Of a DNA stretch of 64,000 nucleotides, positions 5,931 to 59,163 are shown one piece after another. Numbering within the stretch: position 1 is the stretch's first letter; the number at the start of each line of letters is the position of its first letter. The DNA lies in NCBI GenBank assembly GCA_030390025.1, contig CM059439.1:12090001-12154000 (forward strand), in the 5' to 3' direction. The notes under the pieces are model-generated. The model searched no databases. It worked only from the letters and a program-made list of their open reading frames with translations, and had not been told where the DNA came from. Origin of the DNA: Squalus acanthias. Taxonomy: Eukaryota. The position numbers and the translations under genes are program-made.

Positions 5931-8105
5931 CGTGCTAAATAGGATAGATTCAGAACAGATCTAGCAGCTCAAAACTGGGCATCCATGAGGCGCTGTGGGC
6001 CATCAGCAACAGCAGGATTGTATTCCACCACAACCTGTAACCTCATGGCCCGGCATATCCCTCACTCTACCATTACCACCAAGCCAGGGGACCAACCCTG
6101 GTTCAACAACGAGTGTAGAAGAGCATGCCAGGAGCAGCACCAGGCGTACCTAAAAATGCGGTGTCAACCTGGGGAAGCTGCAACACAGGACTACATGCTA
6201 CAAAGCAGAAGCAGTATGCTATAGACAGGGCTAAGTGATCCCACATTCAACGGATCAGATCAAAGCTCTGCAGTCCTGCCACATCCAGTCGTGAATGGTG
6301 GTGGACCATTAAACAACTAACAGGAGGAGGAGGCTCCATGAATATCCCCATCCTCAATGATGGTGGAGCCCAGCACGTGAGTGCAAAAGACAAGCTGAAG
6401 CGTTTGCAACCAACTTCAGCCAGAAGTGCCGAGTGGATGATCCATATCGACCTACTCCCGAGGACCCCACCCTCACAGAAGCCATTCTTCAGCCAATTCG
6501 ATTCACTCCACGTGATATCAAGAAACGGCTGAGCGCACTGGATACAGCAAAGGCTATGGGCCCCGACAACATCCCGGCTATCATGCTGAAGACTTGTGCT
6601 CCAGAACTAGCCGCGCCTCTGGCCAAGCTGTTCCAGTACAGCTACAACACTGGCATCTATCCGACAATGTGGAAAACTGCCCAGGTATGTCCTGTCCACA
6701 AAAAGCAGGACAAATCCAACCCAGCCAATTAACGCCCCACCAGTCTACTCTCAATCATCAGCAAAGTGATGGAAGGTGTCATCAACAGTGCTATCAAGCA
6801 GCACTTACTCACCAATAACCTGCTCACTGATGCCCAGTTTGGGTTCCGCCAAGACCACTTGGCTCCCGACCTCATTACAGCCTTGGTCCAAACATGGACA
6901 AAGGAGCTGGATTCCAGAGGCGAGGTGAGAGTGACTGCTCTTGACATCAAGGCAGCATTTGACCGAGTCTGGCATCAAGGAGCCCTAGTAAAACTGAAGT
7001 CAATGGGAATCGGGGGGGAAAACGCTCCACTGGCTGGAGTCATACCTAGCACAAAGGAAGATGGTTGTGGTGGTTGAAGGTCAATCATCACAGCCCCAGG
7101 ACGTCGCTGCAGGAGTTCCTCAGGGCAGTGTCCTAGGCCCAACCATCTTCAGCTGCTTCATCAATGACCTTCCCTCCAACATAAGGTCAGAAATGGGGAT
7201 GTTCGCTGATGACTGCACAGTGTTCAGCGCCATTCGCAACTCCACAGATAATGAAGCAGTCCATGCCTGCATGCAACAAGACCTGGACGACATTCAGGCT
7301 TGGGCTGATAAGTAGCAGGTAACATTCGCGCCACAGAAGTGCCAGGCAATGACTATCTCCAACAAGCGAGAGTCTAACCACCTCCCCTTGACATTCAATG
7401 GCATTACCATTGCTGAATCCCCCACTATCAACATCGTGGGGGTCACCATTAACCAGAAACTTAACTGGACCAGCCACATAAATACTGTGGTAACAAGAGC
7501 AGGTCAGAGGCTAGGTATTCTGCGGCGTGTGTCTCACCTCCTGACTCCCCAAAGCCTTTCCACCATCTACAAGGCATAAGTAAGGAGTGTGATGGAATAC
7601 TCTCCACTTTCCTGGATCAGTGCAGCTCGAACAACACTCAAGAAGCTCAACACCATCCAGGACAAAGCAGCCCGCTTGATTGGCACCCCATCCACCACCT
7701 TAAACATTCACTCCCTCCACCACTGGCATACCGTGGCTGCAGTGTGTACCATCTACAAGCTGCACTGCAGCAACTCGCCAAGGCTTCTTCGGCAGCACTT
7801 CCCAAACCCGCGACCTCTTCCACCTAGAAGGACAAGGGCAGCAGGTGCATGGGAACACCACCACCTCCAAGTTCCCCTCCAAGTCACACCATCCTGACTT
7901 AGAAGTATATCGCCGATCCTTCATCGTCGCTGGGTCAAAATCCTGGAACTCCCTACCTAACCGCACTGTGGGAGTACCTTCGCCACATGGACTGCAGCGG
8001 TTCAAGAAGGCGGCTCACCACCACCTTCTCAAGGGCAACTAGGGATGGGCAATAAATGCTGGCATTGCCAGCGACGCCCTGATCCCATAAACAAATAAAA
8101 AAAAA
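5931..8105 (+). mobile_element. 5'-truncated CR1/L2-group non-LTR retrotransposon, disrupted RT
   Basis: ORF pieces with RT motifs (QFGFR, LDIKAAFDRVWH, GVPQGSVLGP, FADD) broken by stops and frameshifts; 3' AATAAA and A-rich tail. Confidence 0.9.
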
Positions 8106-19895: not shown

Positions 19896-20948
19896 CTGAC
19901 CGATTTGTTTCAGCCTGCTCCTGCCCCACATAACTTACTTCCTTTTATTTCGACTCCCAATTTTTTTTCTCCCCTTGTTCAGTCCCGACTCACCTACACC
20001 TGCGACTCTTCTGATGCCCGCCACCATTTCAACCAATTCCACTTTCCTGACCCTAACCGTCACCTTTTCCACCAGGAACATCCAGTCCCTCTGTACCTCC
20101 CTCCCCCACCAGGATGGCCTGTGGGCCCTCCGCTTATTCCTGGAACAGTGGTCCAATCAGTCTCCATCCACCACCACCCTCTTCCGCCTGTCTAAACTTG
20201 TTCTCGCATTGAACAACTAATCCTTTAACTCGATAGCAAAATACTGCGGATGCTGGAAAATTGAAACAACAACCGAAAACGCTGGAAAAACTCAGCAGGC
20301 CAGGCAGCATCCGTGGAGAGAGAAACAGAGTTAACGTTTCAGGTCGATCCTTTAACTCTGCTCGCTTCTTCCAAATGAAAGGTGTTGTTATGGGAACCTG
20401 CATGGGTCCTAGCTCTCGCAAAATACTGCGGATACTGGAAATCTGAAATAAAAACCAAGTGCTGGAAACACTCAGCCGGTCAGGCAGCATCTGTGGAAAG
20501 AGGAAGGTAGGGTTAACGTTTCAGGTTGGTGAACTTTCTTCCAAACTGCTCCTCAGTCTATCCCCAGAGCTGATGATCGCGAAGTCAAGGAAGGGAAGGA
20601 AGAGTCAGAGATGGCCTGTTGTTTCTCTCTCCACAGATGCTGCCTGACATGCTGAGTGTTTCCAGCATTTTCTGTTTTGATTTGGCTCCTAACTGTGACT
20701 GCCTATTTGTAGGTTATGTTAAGCATTCTTTACCCCAGTCCTACTCGGTTCCCCCCTCCCTGACCTCTTCCAGTACATAGATGATCGTACTGGAAGAGGT
20801 ACTTCCTGTTGTTCCCTCGAGCTGGAGAATTTAATTGACCTTTTCTTCACACTTTCACCCCTCACTCACCTTCATGTGGTCCATCTCTGACACTTCCCTT
20901 TCCTTCCTCTCATTCTCTATCACTATCTCTGGGGATAGATCGAGGAGC

Positions 20949-20985
20949 GGTTCTGACGAAAGGTCATCGACCTGAAACGTTAACC
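20949..20985 (+). ncRNA. Minimal type-I hammerhead ribozyme motif in PLE terminal repeat
   Basis: ggtt-CTGACGA-a-AGGTC(atc)GACCT-GAAA-CG-TT-aacc: intact core, helix II, palindromic ACGU helix III, GUU triplet, helix I ggtt/aacc. Confidence 0.75.
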
Positions 20986-21995
20986 CTACCTTCCTCTCTC
21001 AACAGATAATGCCTGACCGGCTGAGTGTTTCCAGCATGTCCTGGTTTTTAATTTGTGTTTTGGGAAGGGTGGTTTAAAGGGTGCACAGTTGTGCATGTCC
21101 CTTTCTTTCACCCCCTTTCCTGTATACATGCTAAGGTCCGACTGAAACACCAGTTGTCACTTGTGCCTTGTTGTCACATGTGCCTTCTAATTTTAATTGC
21201 TGGCACTCTCGTGGTGTAGGATGAATTCAGTTGGGAAGCCATGATCTTCGCGTTACTCTTGGACTTGCTTGGTGTTGTGCCATGCTTGGTCTGTGTGTAA
21301 AAATATAAACCATGGAATTTCAAGACATTGACTTAGGATCAGTGGATTTATTCCATTTTATTTCTGTTCTCCCTTATAATGGTTGTGGTGCTTTTATCAA
21401 ATACTATTATATATGAAATACAAATGATAATCAAAATCTGACACAAAATAGTCGAACTTGGAAATAAAATAGATGCAATTTAAGCATAGAAAATAATTGA
21501 CACTGGCAAGAATTTGCTTGACGTTGTAATTAGAATAGACCCTTGGGCCTGGTTCTGCGGAGGTGAATTTGAAAGCCGCAAATGGTCTGTTTTTGCTTTA
21601 CAGAAGAATCCTGATGGCTTAATCTGTGCTCATTAGTCCAATGTCTGTTGCCTGAGTGGAGCAGAGTGGGTGGGATGGAGCTGGTGCTGTACTGTGTGGA
21701 GCTGCTGGCTCTAGCCAGTCTGCTGAAAGTAGCTTTACCATGAAGCAAGCTCCAGAGCTGGGTTACTTGTTGTGGACGGTACTACTATGGCACCAATTGA
21801 AAGTAGAGATTCTTTTCTTTTTCATAACGACGACAGTCGAATGTCAGACGTTCTGTCCACTCCCGCCTCCAACTACCAGTATCAATGAGGGATCGTTCAT
21901 CTGTTGGGGCACGCGTCTCAAAACAAAACCATTTGGATATCACGCTAATTATGTAACATGCAGTTCCTGCTCTCCTATCTCTCCCGCCCACGCCC

Positions 21996-22580
21996 CCTGC
22001 TCCCCCCAGCTCTCCTTCCCCACCCCCCTCCAGCTCTCCTCCCCGCCCCCCCACTCCAGCTCTCCTCCCCGCCCCCCCACTCCAGCTCTCCTTCCCTTCC
22101 CCCCCCCACTCCAGCTCTCCTTCCCCCCCCCCCACTCCAGCTCTCCTTCCCCCCCCCCCCCCACTCCAGCTCTCCTTCCCCCCCCCCACTCCAGCTCTCC
22201 TCCCCCCGCCCCCCCCACTCCAGCTCTCCTCCCCCCCCCTCCAGCTCTCCTTCCCCCCCACTCCAGCTCTCCTTCCCCCCCCCCCTCCAGCTCTCCTTCC
22301 CCCCCCCCCCCTCCTCCAGCTCTCCTTCCCCCCCCCCCTCCAGCTCTCCTCCCCCCCCCCCCCCACTCCAGCTCTCCTTCTCTTCCCCCCCCCCCCCCTC
22401 CAGCTCTCCTTCCCCCCCCCCCCACTCCAGCTCTCCTTTCTCCCCCCCCCCCCCCCCCCCCCACTCCAGCGCTCCTTCCCCTCGCTCTCCTTTCCCCTTC
22501 CCTCCCCCCTCGCTCTCCTTTCCCCTCCGCTCTCGCTTTCTTTTCCTCTCCCCCCCCCCCACCCCCCCCAGCTCTCCTTT
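21996..22580. repeat. C-rich variable tandem repeat (CCAGCTCTCC(T)T-Cn-(A)CT)n
   Basis: More than 20 copies of CCAGCTCTCC separated by C-runs of variable length. Confidence 0.95.
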
Positions 22581-23546
22581 ATCCTCCACCCTCAATTATA
22601 TTATGATGGGGGTAAATTGTCTTCCGTCAGTGGCTTAACCAAAATGCTGCCTGTGATTTGTCAAATTATGACCCATGGAAAAGTATTCCTGTTTGTGGGG
22701 ATAAAAACAAATGTTTTGAGACAGTTACATATAGCGGAATTGTACAGAAATCTTCAGATAAGAAGAAGAAAAGTTAAGGTACAATTCGAGAAAAAATTGC
22801 AGATACTACTTGGGACATTTGAGCAACTGGGTACACGATAACACACGCAGGCAATGAATTAACTGTCCAATGACCACCCTATGGCTGGAGGTTTATCAGC
22901 TTTATTCTTGCATCTGTTGACCAGTTTTTAAGACCATATATTGTACACCACTTTGAGAGTCAATGTTGATACTGCCTCGAAGCCATATGATGATTATCGG
23001 AATGGGAACTGTAAAAAGAAAGAAAGACTTGCATTTATATAGCGCCTTTCACGACCACCGGACGTCTCAAAGCGCTTTGCAGTCAATGAAGTACTTTTGG
23101 AGTGTAGTCACTGTTGTAATGCTGCATTATTGCCGACCTGCCTGGCACTACAAGTAAAGATAGTGAGACAGATGACCTTTTGGGGAAAAAGTTCAATTGT
23201 AATCTGGTACCCAGAAGTATATGGCAGTAACCCCATTCAAGGATGATATCAATCTCGTACTGTGAAAGTAAAGTTTGAGTGGTTTATAATCAATGTCAGA
23301 AACCCATGATGCTTACTACCATTTTTAAAAGTTCCACGTATTTATCACTTTACAACACATACTGTGGAGATTAGATGATTTTAATGCTGTTGTCACGGTG
23401 ACCTGGCCAAAATTCTCCATCCATTTGGACATCCACATGAAAGGAGTAACAAATGGGATGGAACCTCGGCAAATTTATTATAAGATTTATGTGCAGAAAT
23501 TAACAGCCTGTGTATATTACTGTGACTACTTTTTTAAACTCATTTT

Positions 23547-30423: not shown

Positions 30424-30674
30424 TATCCATAGGCCAAGAAGAAGACCCCATTCACTCTGACAAACTGCAGTGCCTGTCTCAATGCCCTTCTGTAGCTTTC
30501 TGGAAATGTCTCTGCTCTCATCGGGTCAGGTTACCTGCTTCCGCAGAGAGGTGAAGTCTAGACGTTTACTACCAGACCACTTTGTATGATTTAAACCCCT
30601 TTGTATTTACAGAAATGAAGGAGATGTTTAGTAAATTGTGCAATGCCACTTGCACAAAGCTGACCAAAATTGAA

Positions 30675-32509
30675 CAGTCGTGAATGGTGGTGGACCATTA
30701 AACAACTAACGGGAGGAGGAGGCTCCATGAATATCCCCATCCTCAGTGATGGTGCAGCACAGCACGCGAGTGCAAAAGACGAGGCTGAAGCGTTTGCAAC
30801 CATCTTCAGCCAGAAGTACCAAGTAGATGATCCATATCGGCCTACTCCTGAGGTCCCCACCATCACAGAAGCCAGTCTTCAGCCAATTCGATTCACTCCC
30901 CGTGATATCAAGAAACGACTGAGCGCACTGGATACAGCAAAGGCTGTGGGCCCCAACAACATCCCAGCTGTCGTGCTGAAGACTTGTGCTCCAGAACTAG
31001 CCGCGCCTCTAGCCAAGCTGTTCCAGTACAGCTATAACACTGGCATCTATCCGACAATGTGGAAAACTGCCCAGGTATGTCCTGTCCACAAAAAGCAGTA
31101 CAAATCCAATCCGGCTAATTACCGCCCCATCAGTCTACTCTCAATCATCAGCAAAGTGATGGAAGGTGCCGTCGACAGTGCTATCAAGCGGCACTTACTC
31201 ACCAAAAACCTACTCACTGATGCCCAGTTTGGGTTCCACCAGGACCACTCTGCTCCAGACCTCATTACAGCCTTGGTCCAAACATGGACAAAAGAGCTGA
31301 ATTCCAGAGATGAGGTGAGAGTGACTGCCCTTGACATCAAGGCAGCATTTGACCGAGTGTGGCATCAAGGAGCCCCTGTTAAACTGAAGTCAATGGGAAT
31401 CGGGGGGGGAAACTCTCCACTGGTTGGAGTCATACCTAGCACAAAGGAAGATGGTTGTGGTGGTTGGAGGTCCATCATCACAGCCCCAGGACATCGCTGC
31501 AGGAGTTCCTCCGGGCAGCGTCCTAGGCCCAACCATCTTCAGCTGCTTCATCAATGACCTTCCCTCCATCATTAGGTCAGAAGTGGGGTTGTTCGCTGAT
31601 GACTGCACAGTGTTCAGTGCCGTTCGCAACTCCTCAGATAATGAAGCAGTCCATGCCCATATGCAGCAAGACCTGGATGACATTCAGGCTTGGGCTGATA
31701 AGTGGCAGGTAACATTCATGCCACACAAGTGCCAGGCAATGACCATCTCCAACAAGCGAGAGTCTAACCACCGCCCCATGACATTCAACGGCATTACCAT
31801 TGCCGAATCCCCCACCATCAATATCCTGGGGGTCATCATTGACCAGAAACTTAACTGGACCAGCCACATAAATATTGTGGCAACAAGAGCAGGTCAGATG
31901 CTGCGTATTCTGCGGCGAGTATCCCACCTCCTGACTCCCCAAAGCCTTTCCACCATCTACTAGGCACAAGTCAGGAGTGTGATGGAATACTCTCCACTTG
32001 CCTGGATGAGTGCAGCTCCAACAACACTCAAGAAGCTCGACACCATCCAACAGAAAGCAGCCTGCTTGATTGGCACCCCATCCACCACCTTAAACATTCA
32101 CTCCCTCCACCACCAGGCGCACCGTGGCTGCAGTGTGTACCATCTACAAGATGCACTGCAGCAACTCACCAAGGCTTCTTCAGCAGCACCTCCCAAACCT
32201 GCGACCTTTACCACCTAGAAGGACAAGGGCAGCAGGCACATGGGAACACCACCACCTCCAAGTTCCCCTCCAAGTCACACACTATCCTGACTTGGAAGTA
32301 TATCGCCGATCCTTCATTGTCACTGGGTCAAAGTCCTCGAACTCCCTCCCTAACAGCGCTGTGGGAGTACCTTCACCACACGGACTGCAGCGGTTCAAGG
32401 CGGCGGCTCACCACCACCTTCTCAAGGGCAATTAGGGATGGTCAATAAATGCTGGCCTTGCCAGTGACGCTCACATCCCATGAACGAATATTTAAAAAAA
32501 AATAAAAAA
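30675..32509 (+). mobile_element. Second copy of the same LINE family, disrupted RT
   Basis: Colinear and highly similar to 6285-8105; NYRPISLL, LDIKAAFD, FADD motifs; A-rich tail. Confidence 0.9.
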
Positions 32510-37766: not shown

Positions 37767-38705
37767 TAAGTTTTTTTTTCTCTTTTTCGAATATTTATCC
37801 ACGACTCTCTTTTAAAAGCTATTATGGATTCTGCTTCCACCAGTGGCCGTTTGGGAATGAAGTGCCAAAGATGGTGCTAAGCAGATAGCTCATGGCTCCA
37901 AATTCAGTACTGATTGACCAGGAGACAATTTAAAAATGGCTCAAATTTATAATGACGAATGGGACTCGTGATTTTGCCAAGTTTAACTCCCATTTTGCTG
38001 TTGTAAGTGAGAATAGTAGACTTTCATCTCTGGTTACTTTTGTGTCCTCTTCTGTGTGTATGTTGCTATTTTTTTTTACAATTTCACAGGCCGTCGATCT
38101 TCAGCTTTACTGCCAGCTTCAGAAATAATCCATTATGTTCTCTTTTTTTTTGTTTGCCTTGAGTAGATACTAATAGGGGAAGGGAAGCGATGAATTATAA
38201 CTCACGAGACATGAAGATTTTATTGGACCAATCTAATTGTGGAAATGATCCTGCTCCCTACTCCAGTCCAGGTTCAGCAATGTCTCTAATCATCTAATGC
38301 TGGTTTCCTAAAACCTGCATTTCACCTGGGTGGATTATCAGACTCTGCTGGAGATACTGGATGTTTTTTTTTTAAAAAGACCAACCATTTTCCTCAACTT
38401 AATTTCTGTGCTCAAGCATTCAGTCCCACGTACCCTTGCATGCACACACTTTCCTGATCTGACTGTGAATAAAACCAGATTTGTTTTTCCTATTGGTTAG
38501 TTGTTCACACAAGCAGCTATGGGCACCAAGAACTTTTAGTGCTGTGACTTAATGGGACCCGTTGAGTAATGTTCTGCCAATTCATTTTGAATTGTTCTCT
38601 TACAAGATGTGGATCTTCCTAGTCTCATTCAGTGTTCCCATTTCCATTGATTGTTATTCCACTGGACATTTTAACTGATGGGAATTCTAACCTACATTGG
38701 CATCT

Positions 38706-38799
38706 GACGAAAGGTCATCGACCGGAAACGTTAACTCTGTTTCTCTCTTCGCAGATGCTGCCTGACCTGCTGAGTTTCTCCAGCATTTTCTGTTTTTAT
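38706..38799 (+). mobile_element. Short PLE-terminus insertion with hammerhead core
   Basis: CTGACGAaaggtcatcgaccgGAAAcgtt at 38704-38732; TSD TTGGCATCT at 38697-38705 and 38800-38808. Confidence 0.75.
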
Positions 38800-39308
38800 T
38801 TGGCATCTTCACATTTGGGTTACTTTTGTAAACATTTGACTTTTATTTTCCTCTTGGCAGCAACTTTGAAAGTAATGCGTCAGAAAGAGCTGGTGTCATA
38901 AACTCCCATGTGTATTTTTAGATTCCTTTAGCAGTGTTTACTGTCATCTATGAATCAGTGCCTTGTAGATTATAAAGCCACTGTATGTTGTGGCTGCTTC
39001 ACTAATTATATCCCATTTAAGGGAATGCCTTGGGGGAACTATAGCTGGATGGGAGGGGAGGGGTGTAACTCAAGTGAATGCAATCTAATTGGAGATCTGC
39101 TGTCCAGATTTAAAGAGAGCAAGATAAATAAGTCCCTGCACTATCCCTATGGTTTTGGTGATCTTGCTGTGTGCAATTGGATGACTTTTTTCCTGTGTGT
39201 GGCGGTTGCATTTTTCTGAATGCCTAAGTCTCTACCCCATTTCTGATGTATTTGCCTGCCTGTCTGTGCCTCAGTATGTCCCTCTCCATTGCAACCTCCC
39301 TCCCTGTC

Positions 39309-39790
39309 CCAGTATGCCCCTGTCCATCTCCATACCAAGTATGACCCTCTCTGTCCCAGTATGCCCCTGTCCATCTCCATACCAAGTATGACCCTCTCTG
39401 TACCAGTATGCCCCTGTCCATCTCCATACCAAGTATGACCCTCTCTGTACCAGTATGCCCCTGTCCATCTCCATACCAAGTATGACCCTCTCTGTACCAG
39501 TATGCCCCTGTCCATCTCCATACCAAGTATGACCCTCTCTGTACCAGTATGCCCCTGTCCATCTCCATACCAAGTATGACCCTCTCTGTACCAGTATGCC
39601 CCTGTCCATCTCCATACCAAGTATGACCCTCTCTGTACCAGTATGCCCCTGTCCATCTCCATACCAAGTATGACCCTCCCTGTCCCAGTATGCCCCTGTC
39701 CATCTCCATACCAAGTATGACCCCCTCTGTACCAGTATGCCCCTGTCCATCTCCATACCAAGTATGACCCTCTCTGTACCAGTATGCCCC
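39309..39790. repeat. 47-bp minisatellite, ~10 units
   Basis: Unit CCAGTATGCCCCTGTCCATCTCCATACCAAGTATGACCCTCTCTGTA starting at 39309, 39356 ... 39779. Confidence 0.95.
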
Positions 39791-40301
39791 TCTGCATCTC
39801 AATATCCCTCTCTGCACTACTTCATATGAACAGAGGAAAAGAAGGGTGAGAAAAGAGCATTCGATCCATCAAACCTTCCCCATCTAATAGACGGAGTAAC
39901 TCCGTGCGTTATCTTCTCACCGCCTAGTTATGGTATCTCCTGGGAGAAACAATATCATAGTCATAACGGCACAGAAGGAGGCCATTTGGCCTATCACGTC
40001 CATGCCGGCTCTCTAGAGCAATCCAGTCAGTCCCATTCCCCCACTTTATCCCCGTAGCCCTGCAAGTTTATTTCCTTCAAATATAACAGGAGAAAAAAAA
40101 AACCTGTGGCCAATTCAGGAAATGTTAGATACTCAGAGTTTTACAAGTTCAACATACATTCAGAAAGGATAAATTATACATGAGGACAAAGTGATGCTCT
40201 GTCTACAGCCCAAGAATAAGAACAAAGGGCATCCTTAATCTTGTACCCTGTTCAAATCTTTATTATAGGGCAGCAAAGTAGCTGTGAACATTAGAGTCTA
40301 A

Positions 40302-42795
40302 GGCCGAGATTTTCCGGGGGAGTCAGCGGGTACGATCGGTGGCGGGTCGGGTGGGAAAGTTTTTTTCCCCAGTGGGTCGGGACCCTGCTGTGAACCCGCT
40401 TCCACGCGCCTTTCCCAACGTCGGGTCTGTCAGCGCTGAGCAGATCTGACAGGCAGCGGCGGGGGACCCAATTCAGGTAATTATGACCTTATTTAGAGAT
40501 CATTAAGAATACATTTGAGCTCACCTTTTGATTTTACGTGCTTGCCCACGGGGTCCTCGCTGCTCGGGGATCACGTCTGTCAAGCTGAGGCGGGAGTTCA
40601 GTGGCCAGTGAATCAGCTGATGAGTTGACAGCTTCAAATGTAAAGTAAAAGCTCCCATCTTGCAGAGATATCTTCCCTCAGCCACAAGCTCTTCCTCACT
40701 GCATTTCCACAACAGATTCACCATGCTGCAAGTCTTTACACAAGTCTCCATCCAGTCTGACCTCATTACCTCTCTCCCCATTAACATCGCTTCTGTCATT
40801 TCTACTTCACCTGCCATCTGTTCCATCAGCATGGGTGCCCTTTATACTCTCTCACCTTGGTCCTCAGAACCCCACCATGATCAGCCCCAACACCAGCATC
40901 ACCAGCAACAACACCACCAACCTTCTCCGCAATCACCTGAGGCTGCACAGGAGAGAGGGCATCAGCACCCAACCACATTGCTGCCAGGGATGGCCTCGCT
41001 ATGGCCAGATTTACTTCATTTGACGCTGTACACCCTGGCTGCCACTTGATGTGCCAGGTTGGCACCACTCCACACCAACACCATAAAGCATCCCTACAAC
41101 GCCCAAGCCATTCCTTTCACACTCATCACCATTGCGGGTGGTACCGTTATGTCTCACCATTCACTGCAACTCACTAAGCCACTTCCAAAGGTGCACACAA
41201 ATCTGTCCAAGAACGCAAAGTGTTGAAAATAAAGGTTTCAATGTTTGATAGCACATTAACAGAAACTTTACATGGACATTACATAAAACACCCAAGTGCC
41301 TACCCTTGTGTGTTGTTAGTTGGTATGATTGCATTAGGATGAGGGTGAGTGTGAGGGGTGGCTCGTGAGATGGGGATGTGATAATATAGATAGAGAGGGA
41401 TGGGTGGAGGTGCAAGGTAAGTTGGTGTGAGAAGGATGTGCAGGAGTAGGGTAGGGAAGGCAGAGTGATGGGGATGTGATGAGAGGCACAGCAGGATGAG
41501 GTTAGAACATAAGAACATAAGAAATAGGAGCAGGAGTAGGCCATTCGGCCCTTCGAGCCTGCTTCGCCATTCAATGAGATCATGGCTGATCTTCTGCCTC
41601 AACTCCATTCACCGGCCCTATCGCCATATCCCTTGATGCCCTTACTAGTCAGAAATCTATCGACTTCTGTTTTGAATATACCCAATGACTGAGCCTCCAA
41701 AGCCCTCTGGGGTAGAGAATTCCAAAGATTCACCACCCTCTGTGAAGAAATGTCTTCTCATCTCAGTCCTGAATGGCCTACCCTTTATCCTGAGGCTGTG
41801 GCCCCTGGTTCTAGACTCCTCAGCCAAGGGAAACATTCTCCCAGCATCCACCCTATCAAGCCCTGTAATAATTTTGTATGCTTCAATGAGATCCCCTCTC
41901 ATTCTTCTGAATTCAAGAGAATACAGGTCTAGTTTACTCAATCTCTTCTCATATGACAGTCCCGCCATCCCAGGAATCAATCTCGTGAACCTTCGTTGCA
42001 CTCCCTCTATGGCAAGTATATCCTTCCTTAGGTAAGGAGACCAAAATTGTACACAGTACTCCAGGTGTGGTCTCACCAAGGCCCTATATAATTGGAGTAA
42101 GACTTCTTTACTCCTGTACTCAAATCCTCTTGTAATGAAGGCCAGCATACCATTTGCCTTCCTAATGGCTTGCTGCATCTGCACATTCACTTTCAGTGAT
42201 TCATGTACAAGGACCCTTTGAGCATCTGCATTCCCCAATCTTTCACCATTTAGGAAATACTCTGCCTTTCTGTTTTTTCTACCAAAGTGGATAACTTTGA
42301 GTGTGGCTTTGTACTAACGTTTCGTGATCTACTGAGATCATTGAAATGTTTGTGGCACTGCCCCCAGGTCCTCCTGACCACATCCCTGCTTGTGCCCTCC
42401 TCTGCAATGTGCAACCAGGCTGTGTTGATCTCCTGGGGTGGTCTCTTCCGCCCATGGGAAGGGAAGAGGACCTCCCTGCGTGCTGTGACTCCCTCCATAA
42501 GCATATGGAGGAGTCATGGGAGAGCCTGGGTGCAGCCCTGTGCCTTTGTGCAGTGCTTGTCAGTGTTTGCAGCACCTCAATGCTGTAGAACACTGACAGC
42601 ACAAATGTCAAATTAAAGTTGGCCATGGTCCCTTTTAAGGAAGCCGGCTGATGACACATCACCCGACCCACTTCCTAGAATTGGCCAGTTAACAAGCTCC
42701 ATCAAGGGAAATTCATATCCGACAGTGGGCTGGAGCCAGCAGCGGGGTCGGGATCCACCACCGACGTCGCCCACCACGGTTAGTAAATCCCGGCC
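40302..42795 (-). mobile_element. PIF/Harbinger deletion derivative with Myb/SANT ORF remnant
   Basis: TIR GGCCG(A/G)GATTT; TAA TSD at 40299-40301 and 42796-42798; - strand AAPRLS../VTARREVLFP...AWLHIAEE...RRTWGQCHKHFNDL. Confidence 0.8.
41504..42296 (-). mobile_element. Young CR1 (HER1-like) 3' fragment nested in a Harbinger derivative
   Basis: 193-aa ORF 41657-42238 (LYRALVRPHLEYCVQFWSP...TRGHSL) and (AAGAACAT)n tail. Confidence 0.9.
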
Positions 42796-44713: not shown

Positions 44714-45048
44714 ATAGAAACATAGAAAAATAGGAGCAGGAGTAGGCCATTCGGCCCTTCGAGCCTGCTCCGCCATTCAATATGATCATGGCTGATCCTC
44801 TATCTCAATACTATATTCCCGCTCTCTCCCCATACCCCTTGATGCCTTTTGTGTCCAGAAATCTATCTATCTCCTTCTTAAATATATTCAGTGACTTGGC
44901 CTCCACAGCCTTCTGTGGTAGAGAATTCCACAGGTTCACCACCCTCTGAGTGAAGAAATTTCTCCTCATCTCAGTCCTAAATGTCCTACCCCGTATCCTG
45001 AGACTGTGACCCCTCGTTCTAGACCCCCCAGCCAGGGGGAACATCCTC
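44714..45048 (-). mobile_element. CR1 (HER1-like) 3' fragment nested in L2
   Basis: - strand ORF RMFPLAGGSRTRGHSLRIRGRTFRTEMRRNFFTQRVVNLWNSLP, typical of the CR1 C-terminus; short tandem-repeat tail. Confidence 0.85.
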
Positions 45049-45942
45049 ATCATCTGCCGTCATCCCCCCCTCCTCAAAAAAACAACCCTTGATCCCTCCG
45101 TCCGTGCAAACTACCGCCCCATCTCCAACCTCCCTTTCCTCGAACGTGTTGTTGCCTCTCAAATCCATGCCCATTTTTCCCGCAATTCCATGTTTGAATC
45201 CCTCCAATCAGATTTCTGCCCTTGCCACAGTACCGAAACTGCTCTCATCAAAGTCACAATGACATCCTTTGTGACTGTGACAAAGGTAAAATTTCCCTCC
45301 TCATTTGACTTGTCTGCAGCCTTTGACATGGTTGACCACTCCATCCTTCTCCAACGCCTCTCCACCATCCTCCAGCTGGGTGGGGCTGCACTCACCTGGT
45401 TCCATCCATATCTATCTAATCATAGCCAGAAAATCACTTGCAACGGCTTTTCTTCCCACTCCCGCATGGTTACCTCTGGTGTCCCCCAAGGATCTATCCT
45501 TGGCCCCCCTCCTATTTCTCATCTACATGTTGCCCCTTGGCGACATCATCCGAAAACACAGCATCAGTTTCCACATGTACGCTGACGACACCCAGCTCTA
45601 CCTCACCACCACTTCTCTCGACGCCTCCACGGTCTCAGACTGCTTGTCCGACATCCAGTTCTGGATGAGCAGAAATTTTCTCCAATTAAATATTGGGAAG
45701 ACCGAAGCCATTGTTTTTGGTCCCCGCCACAAACTCCGTTCCCTAGCCACTGACTCCATCCCTCTCCCTAACATCTGTTTGAGGCTGAACCACACTGTTC
45801 GCAACCTTGGTGTCATATTTGACCCTGAAATGAGTTTCCGACCACATATCCGCAGCATAACTAAGACCGCCTATTTCCACCACCGTAACATCGCCCGTCT
45901 CCGCCCTTGTCTCAGCTCATCCGCTGCTGAAACCCTTATCCA

Positions 45943-46237
45943 CACAGAATCACAGAATCCCTACAATGCAGATAGAGGCCATTTCGGCCCATCGAGCCTG
46001 CACCGACACATATCCCACCCTATCCCCCTAACACTAAGGGTCAATTTATCATAGCCAAATCAACCTAACCCGCACATCTTTGGACTGTGGGAGGAAACCG
46101 GAGCACCCGGAGGAAACCCACGCAAACACGGGGAGAATGTGCAAACTCCACACAGACAGTCACCCGAGGCCGGATTCGAACCCGGGTCCTTGGCGCTGTG
46201 AGGCAACAGTGCTAACCACTATGCCACCGTGTTGCCC
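45943..46237 (-). mobile_element. HE1-type V-SINE (tRNA head, V domain, CR1-derived tail) nested in L2
   Basis: GGAGGAAACCGGAGCACCCGGAGGAAACCCACGCA..GGGGAGAATGTGCAAACTCCACACAGAC V-domain; B-box GGTTCGAATCC on -; tail shared with CR1. Confidence 0.85.
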
Positions 46238-53535: not shown

Positions 53536-53672
53536 TCCCTGCCTCTGTACATGCTTAAAAACTGTTGCATCTCGAACTGATGAAAGGTCATCGACCTGAA
53601 ACGTAACCTCTGTTTCTCTCTCCACAGATGCAGCTCGACCTGCTGAGTATATCCAGCATTTTCTATTTTATT
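53536..53672 (+). mobile_element. Short PLE-terminus insertion with hammerhead core
   Basis: CTGATGAaAGGTCatcGACCTGAAAcgta at 53577-53605; TSD ATAGA(T/A)TTAGAATT at 53522-53535 and 53673-53686. Confidence 0.75.
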
Positions 53673-54381: not shown

Positions 54382-54383
54382 GA

Positions 54384-56954
54384 ATGTTTACCCTCACAGA
54401 AGTTGCATCTCTTAATGACATACAGGCAACCTATCGAATCCTGAAGCCATGGTGGGACGTATTCATGGACTATTTAGCCCTTGTAATGCTGATGGTCGCT
54501 ATCTTTGCGGGCACCATGCAGCTGACCAAAGATCAAGTCGTGTGTCTTCCTGAGCCCCAATCAGACGAAAGGTCAGAAACCCAGCGCAGCATCTCGGAGA
54601 GTCCGACAAAATTTCCCGAAGCATCTGCTGTACCAGATTTAGGAAGCACTACCTCTTCGCGAGGGAGACGGAATCATGCTACTGAGGGAGCCAACGTCTT
54701 TGCTTTTGGAAGCGTGCCTACGATAACCGTTGACCTACCTGATGACGTCGATCATCCCGTACAAAGAGCCCCTCTCAACTTTGGGCGTCCGACTAACTTA
54801 GAGTACCAGCAATATATTTTCATCAATCAGATGTGCTATCATGTGGCCTTGCCCTGGTACTCCAAGTATTTTCCCTACCTTGCTCTAATCCATACACTCA
54901 TCCTCATGGTCAGTAGCAATTTCTGGTTCAAGTACCCCAAGACCAGTTCAAAGATCGAACATTTTGTTTCTATATTGGGAAAGTGTTTCGAGTCTCCGTG
55001 GACCACAAAAGCACTCTCTGAGACTGCGTGTGAGGACTCTGAGGAGAACAAGCAACGCTTTAAGACCTCTGTAGCAAAGCATTTATCGACTGGCAGTGAA
55101 GAAGAAAGCCCGAGCTCCAGCACACCCATGATATCGAGGACTGGACCTAAATTTTCGGCTGAGAAGCCGGTCATTGAGGTTCCTAGCATGACTATTTTAG
55201 ACAAGAAAGATGGAGAGCAGGCCAAAGCCCTTTTTGAAAAAGTTCGTAAGTTCCGTGCCCATGTAGAAGACAGTGATTTGATATATAAACTCTATGTTGT
55301 CCAGACAGTCATAAAGACAGTGAAATTAATGTTTATTTTATGTTATACGCTTACTTTTGTGACTTCTATAAGTTTTGATCATGTCTGCAAACCAGACATA
55401 GAGCATTTGACTGGATATACTGAATTTTATTGTACTCACAACATGGCTTTTATGCTGCGAAAATTACTAATTAGTTACATTGCACTCATATGCGTTTATG
55501 GACTGGTTTGCATATATACTTTGTTTTGGCTGTTCAGGCGGCCCTTAAAGGAATACTCATTTGAAAAGGTCCGTGAAGAAAGTAGTTTTAGTGACATTCC
55601 AGATGTTAAAAATGACTTTGCATTTCTGCTGCACATGGTTGATCAATATGACCAACTTTACTCGAAGCGCTTTGGGGTCTTCCTGTCGGAGGTGAGTGAA
55701 AACAAACTGCGGGAGCTGAGTTTGAACCACGAGTGGACTTACGAGAAACTCAAACAGCACGTCTCTCGGAATCCTCAAGACAAGCTGGAGCTGCACCTCT
55801 TCATGCTCTCCGGGGTGCCCGACGCGGTCTTCGACATGACCGAGCTGGAGGTGCTGAAGCTGGAGCTGATTCCTGAGGCGAAGATTCCTGCCAAAATCTC
55901 CCAAATGACGAATCTTCAGGAACTGCACCTTTACCATTGCCCTGCTAAAGTGGAACAAACTGCCTTCAGCTTCCTCCGGGACCACCTTAGGTATCTGCAC
56001 ATCAAGTTCACTGACGTTGCGGAAATTCCCACCTGGGTCTATTTGCTTAAAAACCTGCGTGAACTGTACCTGGTTGGTAATCTGAACTCTGAAAATAATA
56101 AGATGATCGCTCTAGAGTCGCTGCGAGAACTGAAACACCTGAAGATCTTGCACCTAAAGAGTAATCTGACCAAAGTTCCTTCAAACATCACTGATGTTGC
56201 GCCCCATCTCACTGCTCTACTGGTTCACAATGATGGAACTAAACTTTTAGTACTGAATAGCTTGAAGAAGATGATCAATCTAACTGAGCTAGAGCTGCAG
56301 AACTGTGAGCTGGAACGGATCCCACACGCCATTTTCAGCTTGACCAACTTGCAGGAACTGGACTTGAAATCCAACAATATTCGCACAATCGAGGAGGTGA
56401 TCAGTTTTCAACATCTGAAGCGCTTGACGTGCCTGAAACTGTGGCACAACAAAATCATCACCATCCCTTCATCCATCAGCCTGGTGAAAAACCTCGAGTT
56501 GCTTTACCTTTCTCAGAATAAACTAGAATCTCTGCCAGCAGCTCTCTTCACTTTACAGAAGCTCAGATACCTGGATGTAAGTCACAATTCCATCGTCGTC
56601 ATTCCAGCGGAAATCACGTCTCTCCAGAATTTACAGTATTTCGCAGTTACAGGAAACCGAGTGGAAATTTTGCCAAAGCAGGTTTTTAAGTGCACAAAGT
56701 TGCGGGTTTTGAATGTAGGGCAAAACTGCATCACTTCCATTTCAGAAAAGGTTGGTCAGCTTGTGCAGCTCACACAGCTAGAGGTGAAGGGGAACTGCCT
56801 GGACCGACTTCCAGCAGAGTTGGGCCACTGTCGCCTTCTGAAGAAAAGCGGGCTTGTCGTTGAAGATCACCTCTTTGACACACTGCCCCCCGAGGTCAAA
56901 GACCTCTTTAATCAAGACTTTAACTCAAATTCGACTTTTGGCGCAGGAATATAA
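54384..56954 (+). CDS. LRRC8D: Leucine-rich repeat-containing protein 8D (VRAC subunit), single coding exon, 856 aa
   Basis: The ORF read from the internal Met is MFTLTEVASLNDIQATYRILKPWWDVFMDYL..., the LRRC8D-type N-terminus. It has a pannexin-like 4-TM domain (WYSKYFPY, FWFKYPKTSSKIEHF, LDKKDGEQAKALFEKV, DVKNDFAFLLH), a long first extracellular loop and C-terminal LRRs. The first 33 aa of the 889-aa ORF lie upstream of a splice acceptor and are intronic. Confidence 0.95.
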   Translation: MFTLTEVASLNDIQATYRILKPWWDVFMDYLALVMLMVAIFAGTMQLTKDQVVCLPEPQSDERSETQRSISESPTKFPEASAVPDLGSTTSSRGRRNHATEGANVFAFGSVPTITVDLPDDVDHPVQRAPLNFGRPTNLEYQQYIFINQMCYHVALPWYSKYFPYLALIHTLILMVSSNFWFKYPKTSSKIEHFVSILGKCFESPWTTKALSETACEDSEENKQRFKTSVAKHLSTGSEEESPSSSTPMISRTGPKFSAEKPVIEVPSMTILDKKDGEQAKALFEKVRKFRAHVEDSDLIYKLYVVQTVIKTVKLMFILCYTLTFVTSISFDHVCKPDIEHLTGYTEFYCTHNMAFMLRKLLISYIALICVYGLVCIYTLFWLFRRPLKEYSFEKVREESSFSDIPDVKNDFAFLLHMVDQYDQLYSKRFGVFLSEVSENKLRELSLNHEWTYEKLKQHVSRNPQDKLELHLFMLSGVPDAVFDMTELEVLKLELIPEAKIPAKISQMTNLQELHLYHCPAKVEQTAFSFLRDHLRYLHIKFTDVAEIPTWVYLLKNLRELYLVGNLNSENNKMIALESLRELKHLKILHLKSNLTKVPSNITDVAPHLTALLVHNDGTKLLVLNSLKKMINLTELELQNCELERIPHAIFSLTNLQELDLKSNNIRTIEEVISFQHLKRLTCLKLWHNKIITIPSSISLVKNLELLYLSQNKLESLPAALFTLQKLRYLDVSHNSIVVIPAEITSLQNLQYFAVTGNRVEILPKQVFKCTKLRVLNVGQNCITSISEKVGQLVQLTQLEVKGNCLDRLPAELGHCRLLKKSGLVVEDHLFDTLPPEVKDLFNQDFNSNSTFGAGI

Positions 56955-58929: not shown

Positions 58930-59163
58930 AAAATTGAGAGGTCGCACAACACCAGGTTATAGTCCAACAGTTTTATTTGAAATCACAAGCTTTCGGAGCT
59001 ATCGATCGCCCCTTCCTCAGGTGAAGTAGAGTACTTCACCTGAGGAAGGGGCGATCGATAGCTCCGAAAGCTTGTGATTTCAAATAAAACTGTTGGACTA
59101 TAACCTGGTGTTGTGCGACCTCTCAATTTTGTCCACCCCAGTCCAACACCAGCATCTCCGCAT
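58930..59163. mobile_element. Penelope-like element terminus in inverted configuration: perfect 99-bp arms, 3-nt loop, 33-bp tail, 15-bp TSD
   Basis: 58930-59028 is the exact reverse complement of 59032-59130. Unpaired tail at 59131-59163. Direct repeat CATAATGTAGGTAAA at 58917-58931 and 59164-59178. Inserted into a Deu-SINE fragment. Confidence 0.85.
59036..59077 (+). ncRNA. Minimal type-I hammerhead ribozyme motif (identical copy on - strand at 58983-59024)
   Basis: tcac-CTGAGGA-a-GGGGC(gatcgata)GCTCC-GAAA-GC-TT-gtga: CUGANGA and GAAA core, helix II, palindromic AGCU helix III, CUU cleavage triplet, helix I tcac/gtga. Confidence 0.75.

What the first reader, a model, noticed from the sequence alone, without database searches (positions are those of the whole stretch)
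20949..20985. Second hammerhead family with compensatory changes in all three helices
Seen: GGUU-CUGACGA-A-AGGUC(AUC)GACCU-GAAA-CGUU-AACC. Compared with the 59036 motif, helix I (GGUU/AACC vs UCAC/GUGA), helix II (AGGUC/GACCU vs GGGGC/GCUCC) and helix III (ACGU vs AGCU) all differ in sequence yet keep pairing, while CUGANGA-A and GAAA are conserved. Inference: this covariation supports a real ribozyme fold in two distinct PLE lineages. The motif is in sense orientation in the presumed LRRC8D intron, so nascent pre-mRNA would contain it.
Basis: partly seen in the sequence, partly recalled or inferred. Interest (0 to 1): 0.7.

Follow-up and report, generated by a model that had tools for sequence, protein, structure and literature searches.

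The report
Penelope retrotransposon minimal hammerhead, intronic copy
This is a real but ordinary minimal hammerhead-ribozyme motif on a decayed copy of a very abundant Penelope-like jumping gene, lying in an intron of a shark-like genome where it likely cuts little or not at all; the copies tend to start just before the motif, likely at the element's own transcription start.

Summary
The motif is there as written. It is the minimal type I hammerhead of a Neptune-like Penelope element (PLE). The intact family is a 3.2-kb tandem unit with a 1004-aa RT/GIY-YIG frame; a generic core pattern matches 143,692 places in this genome (control 1,083). The 59036 motif belongs to a second family (32% protein identity). 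RNA-like contigs place 20949 sense in a 64-kb intron of the LRRC8 gene.

The covariation claim is overstated. GGUU/AACC is a private variant: 4 copies, against 34 with an A·C mismatch; the family has AGUU/AACU. Two-sided changes occur only within family 2. The class was published in 2014; a lone copy is predicted to misfold.

Extra result: copy 5' ends pile up 0-9 nt upstream of the core in both families, with no clear peak at the cut site. They fall on an Inr-like motif about 30 nt behind a TATA-like box, and shift upstream in a subfamily whose motif is shifted (p=0.0008). The RNA likely starts at the hammerhead and is copied uncut. This scan found the motif class before in this genome, and the pile-up in other genomes.

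The parts
20949..20985 (+). Minimal type I hammerhead motif of PLE family 1; core 20953-20959 and 20974-20977, helix II 20961-20973, predicted cut after 20981
20950..21053 (+). pLTR piece: hammerhead plus tail, 83-84% identical to the young intact family; lacks the optional 3' extension
20683..20938 (+). Decayed PLE reverse-transcriptase fragment (74% to intact copy L125:5212-5464) directly upstream of the motif
20931..20952 (+). Junction RT | about 10-nt filler | hammerhead; the exact pattern occurs only here and in the inverted sibling at 20544-20565
   Evidence: 2 matches in the genome, both at this locus
20418..20614 (-). Inverted sibling: RT piece, same junction, hammerhead with broken core, tail with extension; 81% identical to the + copy
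20622..20683 (+). Short tail-only arm; with the inverted sibling it likely forms one back-to-back insertion in the RT fragment, flanked by a decayed ~11-bp duplication
   Evidence: single-event reading is inference
20231..20353 (-). Younger family-1 insertion (93% to intact), starts inside helix II, target duplication TCCTTTAACTC
19907..20414 (+). Older PLE RT fragment hosting the nested insertions (81-85% to intact), interrupted at 20231-20347
38704..38736 (+). Nearest same-strand family-1 core, 17.7 kb away, short copy beginning at the motif edge
53577..53605 (+). Third sense family-1 core in the same intron
58983..59077 (.). Family-2 hammerheads, two arms back to back, both starting at -8 from the core
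54382..56951 (+).

Best explanation
The motif is the minimal type I hammerhead in the pseudo-LTR of a decayed, internally deleted copy of a very abundant Penelope-like retrotransposon, likely of the Neptune type, lying sense in an LRRC8 intron where, as a lone copy, it likely cleaves poorly or not at all. Shown: sequence, PLE context, copy number, intron position, selection on the fold in family 2, and a pile-up of copy 5' ends just upstream of the core. Inferred: in active elements a TATA/Inr promoter starts the RNA 4-8 nt before the core; the element protein begins reverse transcription in the tail about 85-135 nt downstream and often runs off this 5' end on uncut RNA, which scatters short hammerhead-plus-tail copies; cleavage would need a second hammerhead (pairing of the ACGU palindromes) or the element's protein.
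For: RT fragments flank the motif. Intact family: 4 hammerheads spaced 3202 bp, each unit with a 1004-aa open frame, Pfam RVT_1 E 5e-5 and GIY-YIG E 6.5e-4, and a CxxxxCxxC linker before the endonuclease, the Neptune/Nematis mark in PMC8557442. Copy counts. Family 2 pairing (185 cores): helix I pair 3 is T-A in 106 and C-G in 70; helix II pair 5 is C-G in 174 and T-A in 6; one-sided helix II changes give G-U in 78 cells and break the pair in 5. 5' ends per event: 2.9%/nt at -9..0 against 0.74 inside and 0.26 upstream in family 1 (104 events); 3.1 against 0.35 and 0.34 in family 2 (82 events); all p<2e-5. 113 of 126 and 131 of 137 copies span the cut site; 6 and 2 start at it. The hammerhead conformation holds 0.5% of the predicted ensemble; the best fold pairs core GACG with CGUU. 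Single min-HHRs showed no cleavage in vitro (PMC4209133); the Anolis PLE hammerhead cut only with protein and uncut RNA was the main substrate (PMC11167929).
Against: No cleavage or 5'-end data exist here, so both inactivity and the start site are inferred. This copy's core is intact although its flanks are about 17% diverged, and its G-C outer pair would strengthen helix I; slight activity is not excluded. Both Pfam hits are below the curated cut-offs. No RT tree was built, so 'Neptune' rests on the linker. Family 1's TATA-like box is weak (TTAAA) and its edge also looks like a 3' splice site. In the shifted subfamily the ends are spread (-3 to -25), not a sharp peak. Energy models ignore the tertiary core.
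Confidence: 0.88

Rival explanations
1. The copy is an active or domesticated intronic ribozyme that cuts the LRRC8 pre-mRNA during transcription.
For: Sense in a real intron; intact core and a 4-bp helix I with G-C closure in an otherwise decayed copy, while the inverted sibling lost its core.
Against: No helix III, nearest same-strand partner 17.7 kb away, predicted misfold. Four sense and one antisense family-1 cores lie in this intron (one further antisense pattern match is unrelated), so sense copies are tolerated; the number is too small for a test. Core matches occur about every 26 kb in this genome.
Confidence: 0.05
2. The 5' pile-up marks a 3' splice site at helix I (as for the D. virilis Penelope intron) or a structure-caused stop of the reverse transcriptase, not a transcription start.
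For: Family 1 has a pyrimidine tract and CAG|TT at -5..-2; the D. virilis intron ends at helix I (PMC4209133). Most family-2 edge ends (29 of 33) are inversion junctions, where fold-back could bias positions.
Against: The main family-2 subfamilies have no AG at the edge. Edge copies share no upstream exon: 8 of 20 in family 1 abut a target duplication of 7 bp or more and 5 an inverted arm. The ends move upstream in the subfamily whose TATA/Inr-like motifs move while helix I stays (9 at 0..-9 and 14 at -10..-30, against 31 and 6; Fisher p=0.0006).
Confidence: 0.25
3. The short copies come from a separate non-autonomous unit (SINE or retrozyme) processed by hammerhead cleavage.
For: Tails far outnumber ORFs; RNA-like contigs of all 4 laid runs hold a go-back joint enclosing about 340 nt around the hammerhead; a preprint reports retrozymes of 363 bp on average in one chondrichthyan.
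Against: 5' ends are heterogeneous with no clear peak at the cut site; no same-strand, same-family core pair closer than about 870 bp in the loci held; this locus is PLE ORF debris.
Confidence: 0.1

Closest known systems
Minimal hammerheads (min-HHRs) of metazoan PLEs, Cervera and de la Pena 2014 (PMC4209133; results and discussion read, 2 supplementary files searched, 1 not searchable)
   Same: CUGANGA and GAAA core, extra nucleotide after A9, 4-bp helix I, palindromic 15.2-16.2, no helix III, location in the pLTR, thousands of single truncated copies, several consensus families per genome with compensatory changes.
   Different: Family 1 has A-U or G-U at 10.1-11.1 instead of the usual G-C; helix II is 5 bp; the count here (143,692 pattern matches, no pairing required) is far above the 9,000 reported for Xenopus with another descriptor; no shark name found in the searched supplement.
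PAc, Poseidon-type PLE of Anolis carolinensis, Frangieh et al. 2024 (PMC11167929; main text read)
   Same: Tandem units, hammerhead at the pLTR-ORF junction, optional tail, internal start of reverse transcription, uncut RNA as template.
   Different: Both families here carry the Cys linker of Neptune/Nematis; that paper maps where copying starts (3' ends), not where it stops (5' ends).
Pen2a_Av pLTR of Adineta vaga (PMC3846280; passages) and D. virilis Penelope promoter (PMC2377424; passages)
   Same: A putative TATA box and Inr TCACT in the pLTR of Pen2a_Av; a start site within the pLTR in Penelope.
   Different: Penelope's promoter is TATA-less and internal, with an intron between start and hammerhead; in the passages I saw, neither paper links the motif to copy 5' ends.
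Non-LTR retrozymes (bioRxiv 10.64898/2026.07.22.740005; first part and passages)
   Same: Type I hammerhead derived from PLE pLTRs; found in a chondrichthyan.
   Different: They are short tandem arrays; this copy is single and joined to RT debris.

Membership tests
Metazoan PLE min-HHR | Core CUGANGA and GAAA...UH | tested here: met
   CTGACGA, GAAA, GTT; invariant columns
Metazoan PLE min-HHR | Helices I and II pair; helix III absent, palindromic 15.2-16.2 | tested here: met
   4 bp and 5 bp; ACGU
Metazoan PLE min-HHR | Lies in the pLTR of a PLE | tested here: met
   One motif per 3202-bp unit, about 285 nt past the ORF stop
Metazoan PLE min-HHR | G10.1-C11.1 pair (a common trait, stated in PMC4209133 as not part of the descriptor) | tested here: not met
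   Family 1: A-T 54, G-T 26 of 81; family 2: G-C 181 of 185
Metazoan PLE min-HHR | Weak self-cleavage as dimer or with protein | not testable with these tools
   Needs an assay
Canonical hammerhead (Rfam models) | Three helices, match to an Rfam hammerhead model | tested here: not met
   No hit at E<=5
EN+ Penelope-like element | Single ORF with RT and C-terminal GIY-YIG | tested here: met
   Intact relatives only (Pfam scores below curated cut-offs); this copy holds RT fragments
EN+ Penelope-like element | Tandem or inverted 5'-truncated copies, optional tail | tested here: met
Neptune clade | Zn-finger-like Cys linker between RT and EN | tested here: met
   PCTRRRCNTC and PCHGKLCKTC, read by eye; criterion from PMC8557442, shared with Nematis
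Neptune clade | RT groups with Neptune references in a tree | not tested
   No reference set was fetched
Non-LTR retrozyme | Short non-coding tandem units, each with a hammerhead | tested here: not met
   Single sense motif joined to RT debris

The most novel reading that the evidence does not exclude
In two vertebrate PLE families a TATA/Inr promoter starts the RNA a few bases before the hammerhead, making the ribozyme the capped first element of the transcript. Reverse transcription from the leader tail then gives a strong-stop-like cDNA that either integrates (short copies) or jumps to the 3' repeat, and protein-assisted cleavage would act as a decapping or circularising switch rather than a step of transposition.
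Probability: 0.4. Interest if true: 0.55.

Novelty: new member of a known kind. Interest (0 to 1): 0.25.

Why it matters
As a single motif it matters little: it is one of more than a hundred thousand. The families are useful material, because intact tandem copies exist and the 5'-end map makes an open question (what the PLE hammerhead is for, and where PLE RNA starts) testable by one cap-mapping experiment. If lone motifs did cut, tens of thousands of intronic copies would affect host transcripts; nothing here suggests that.

Tried and rejected
Rfam scan: no hammerhead. Run search: no RNA holder listed on record, only contigs, so starts, ends, strand and cleavage could not be read. PLE pLTR laid on 4 runs: no GT..AG joint; the one skip (6315 to 6652, GT..TC) lacks an acceptor and looks like a microhomology deletion; contigs cannot show absence. 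Cut-site hot spot: 6 of 126 and 2 of 137 copies, no clear peak. Extra G from cap copying: 5 of 8 family-2 ends at -7 have a G before them, 1 of 4 family-1 ends at -4; confounded by the inverted arm, inconclusive (read by eye). A family sharing the RT-hammerhead junction: only the 2 local matches; an exact pattern would miss most old copies. Stutter repeats at the 5' junction: 3 family-2 cases, anecdotal. Paper searches found no report of shark PLE hammerheads or of 5' ends at the hammerhead edge; the library lacks most subscription papers, one supplement of PMC4209133 could not be searched and the preprint's supplements were not seen. No protein database search, structure prediction or tree was run.

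Full report
Observation. The 37-nt motif is at 20949-20985 as written, with the predicted cut after T20981. The window holds two more sense cores of the same family (38704, 53577), degenerate antisense copies, and a back-to-back pair of a second motif at 58983-59077. Rfam finds nothing and the fold energy is not exceptional. The case against chance is copy number: 13,633 exact matches of the 32-nt core and 143,692 of a generic core pattern against 1,083 for the reversed control.

What surrounds it. The motif sits at the end of a nest of Penelope-like element (PLE) debris. An old RT fragment (19907-20414, 20683-20938; 74-85% identical to an intact copy) carries a younger short insertion with an 11-bp target duplication and a back-to-back insertion whose left arm repeats the RT-filler-hammerhead junction found at 20931-20952. 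That junction pattern matches only these two places in the genome. An internal deletion or template jump followed by a local copy is my inference.

The intact families. A protein search with the RT fragment led to an array of 3202-bp units, one hammerhead each, with a 1004-aa open frame showing RT and GIY-YIG matches below Pfam's curated cut-offs. The 59036 motif belongs to a 3136-bp unit with an 877-aa frame. The proteins are 32% identical over 826 positions, so two lineages is right. Both have a Cys-rich linker before the endonuclease, which PMC8557442 (passages) gives as the mark of Neptune and Nematis; no tree was built.

Host gene. Contigs from 3 of 4 laid runs, 2 studies, RNA status guessed, continue 5' of 54382 with letters that map to an exon 9.8 kb upstream of the window, followed by GTAAGT. 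The motif is therefore sense in an intron of about 64.2 kb. That intron holds four sense and one antisense family-1 cores.

Covariation. The quoted outer G-C pair of helix I is not a family trait: GGTT..AACC occurs 4 times, AGTT..AACC 34 times, the inverted sibling has the mismatch, and 70 of 81 sampled cores have A-T. Among 81 family-1 cores (of 151 tails) there is no recurrent two-sided change; the first pair of helix II is A-T in 54 and G-T in 26. Among 185 family-2 cores (of 228 tails) there are two: helix I pair 3 (T-A 106, C-G 70, T-G 3) and helix II pair 5 (C-G 174, T-A 6). One-sided helix II changes give G-U in 78 cells and break the pair in 5, but the outer pair of helix I is broken in 44 of 185. 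These counts are copies, not events, and reflect a handful of subfamily changes; one subfamily was sampled on purpose. The fold is under selection in the active lineages, most clearly in family 2.

Likely activity. The motif has no helix III. The hammerhead conformation holds about 0.5% of the predicted ensemble, and the best fold pairs the core with the cut-site strand. The nearest same-strand partner is 17.7 kb away. PMC4209133 (results and discussion read) reports no cleavage for a single min-HHR and weak cleavage for dimers. PMC11167929 (main text read) reports cleavage only with the element protein, uncut RNA as the main substrate, and no RNA-seq ends at the cut site. I infer little or no cutting of the host pre-mRNA; this was not tested.

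Where copies begin. In one search many copies began just before the core, so I sampled copies by their tail only (166 sequences, 1.30 Mb, mostly the first 9 Mb of contig C1; loci chosen by core or RT were left out; 2 of 12 family-1 references were dropped) and mapped 5' ends by anchored alignment. Per insertion event the rate of ending is 2.9%/nt at -9..0 against 0.74 inside the motif and tail and 0.26 at -60..-10 in family 1 (104 events), and 3.1 against 0.35 and 0.34 in family 2 (82 events; some events over-merged); all p<2e-5. Modes are -3/-4 and -7/-8. Of 20 family-1 edge ends, 8 abut a target duplication of 7 bp or more, 5 an inverted arm, 6 unverified flank, and 1 is a false call; of 33 family-2 edge ends, 29 are inversion junctions and 2 have duplications. 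113 of 126 and 131 of 137 copies span the cut site; 6 and 2 begin at it.

What the edge is. Long copies show TATATA at -37..-40 and TCACTTC or TTACTTC with its A at -7 in the main family-2 subfamilies, and TTAAA or TTATAAA at -33..-36 with CCAGTTC (A at -4) in family 1: about 30 nt in both (the TATA/Inr consensus and spacing are recalled). PMC3846280 (passages) noted a TATA box and TCACT in a rotifer pLTR. One family-2 subfamily has both motifs about 6 nt further upstream while helix I stays put. In 99 tail-selected copies of it the ends are 9 at 0..-9 and 14 at -10..-30, against 31 and 6 in the others (Mann-Whitney p=0.0008), though they are spread rather than sharp and the two arms of one insertion are counted apart. 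This favours a transcription start over a splice site or a structural stop, but no RNA 5'-end data were available.

Earlier notes of this scan. Many notes in this genome reach the same ordinary reading, and four notes on other genomes report the pile-up at the hammerhead edge. I saw the latter after my own test; they are not independent evidence. The promoter spacing and the shift test were not in the lines shown.

Verdict. A real min-HHR of a known kind on a dead PLE fragment. Interest 0.25; the start-site model is the part worth testing.

Noticed in passing
window 6661-6684 or 31051-31074 (or another copy) to 54382: Contigs of 2 runs (2 studies) join a LINE-derived sequence ending CCAG|GTATGT to the LRRC8 coding exon: a likely alternative 5' exon from a repeat.
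   Followed up: partly
L125:6588-6928: Contigs of all 4 laid runs hold a go-back joint enclosing about 340 nt around the hammerhead; could be a retrozyme-like tandem or circle, or one genomic partial tandem.
   Followed up: no
L125:3360-6371 (C7:118063360-118066371): The open frame runs through the hammerhead; in the CTGATGA variant an in-frame ATG lies inside the catalytic core, and a second in-frame ATG lies in the tail.
   Followed up: no
L217:4199-4236: A family-2 haplotype with core CCGACGA (U4 to C) recurs 4 times together with a compensatory helix II change.
   Followed up: no
L154, L160, L240 junctions: Short direct repeats of the element's first bases at the 5' junction, like stutter at a template end.
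   Followed up: partly
C7:118063456-118073062: Four hammerheads in head-to-tail 3202-bp units with three intact 1004-aa frames, a very young insertion.
   Followed up: partly
window 21950-22600 and 39150-39870: Low-complexity C-rich and tandem repeat tracts that give long spurious frames.
   Followed up: no
window 30664-32445, 41660-42313, 45010-46051: RT-like frames of other LINE-type elements, broken (family names not tested).
   Followed up: no
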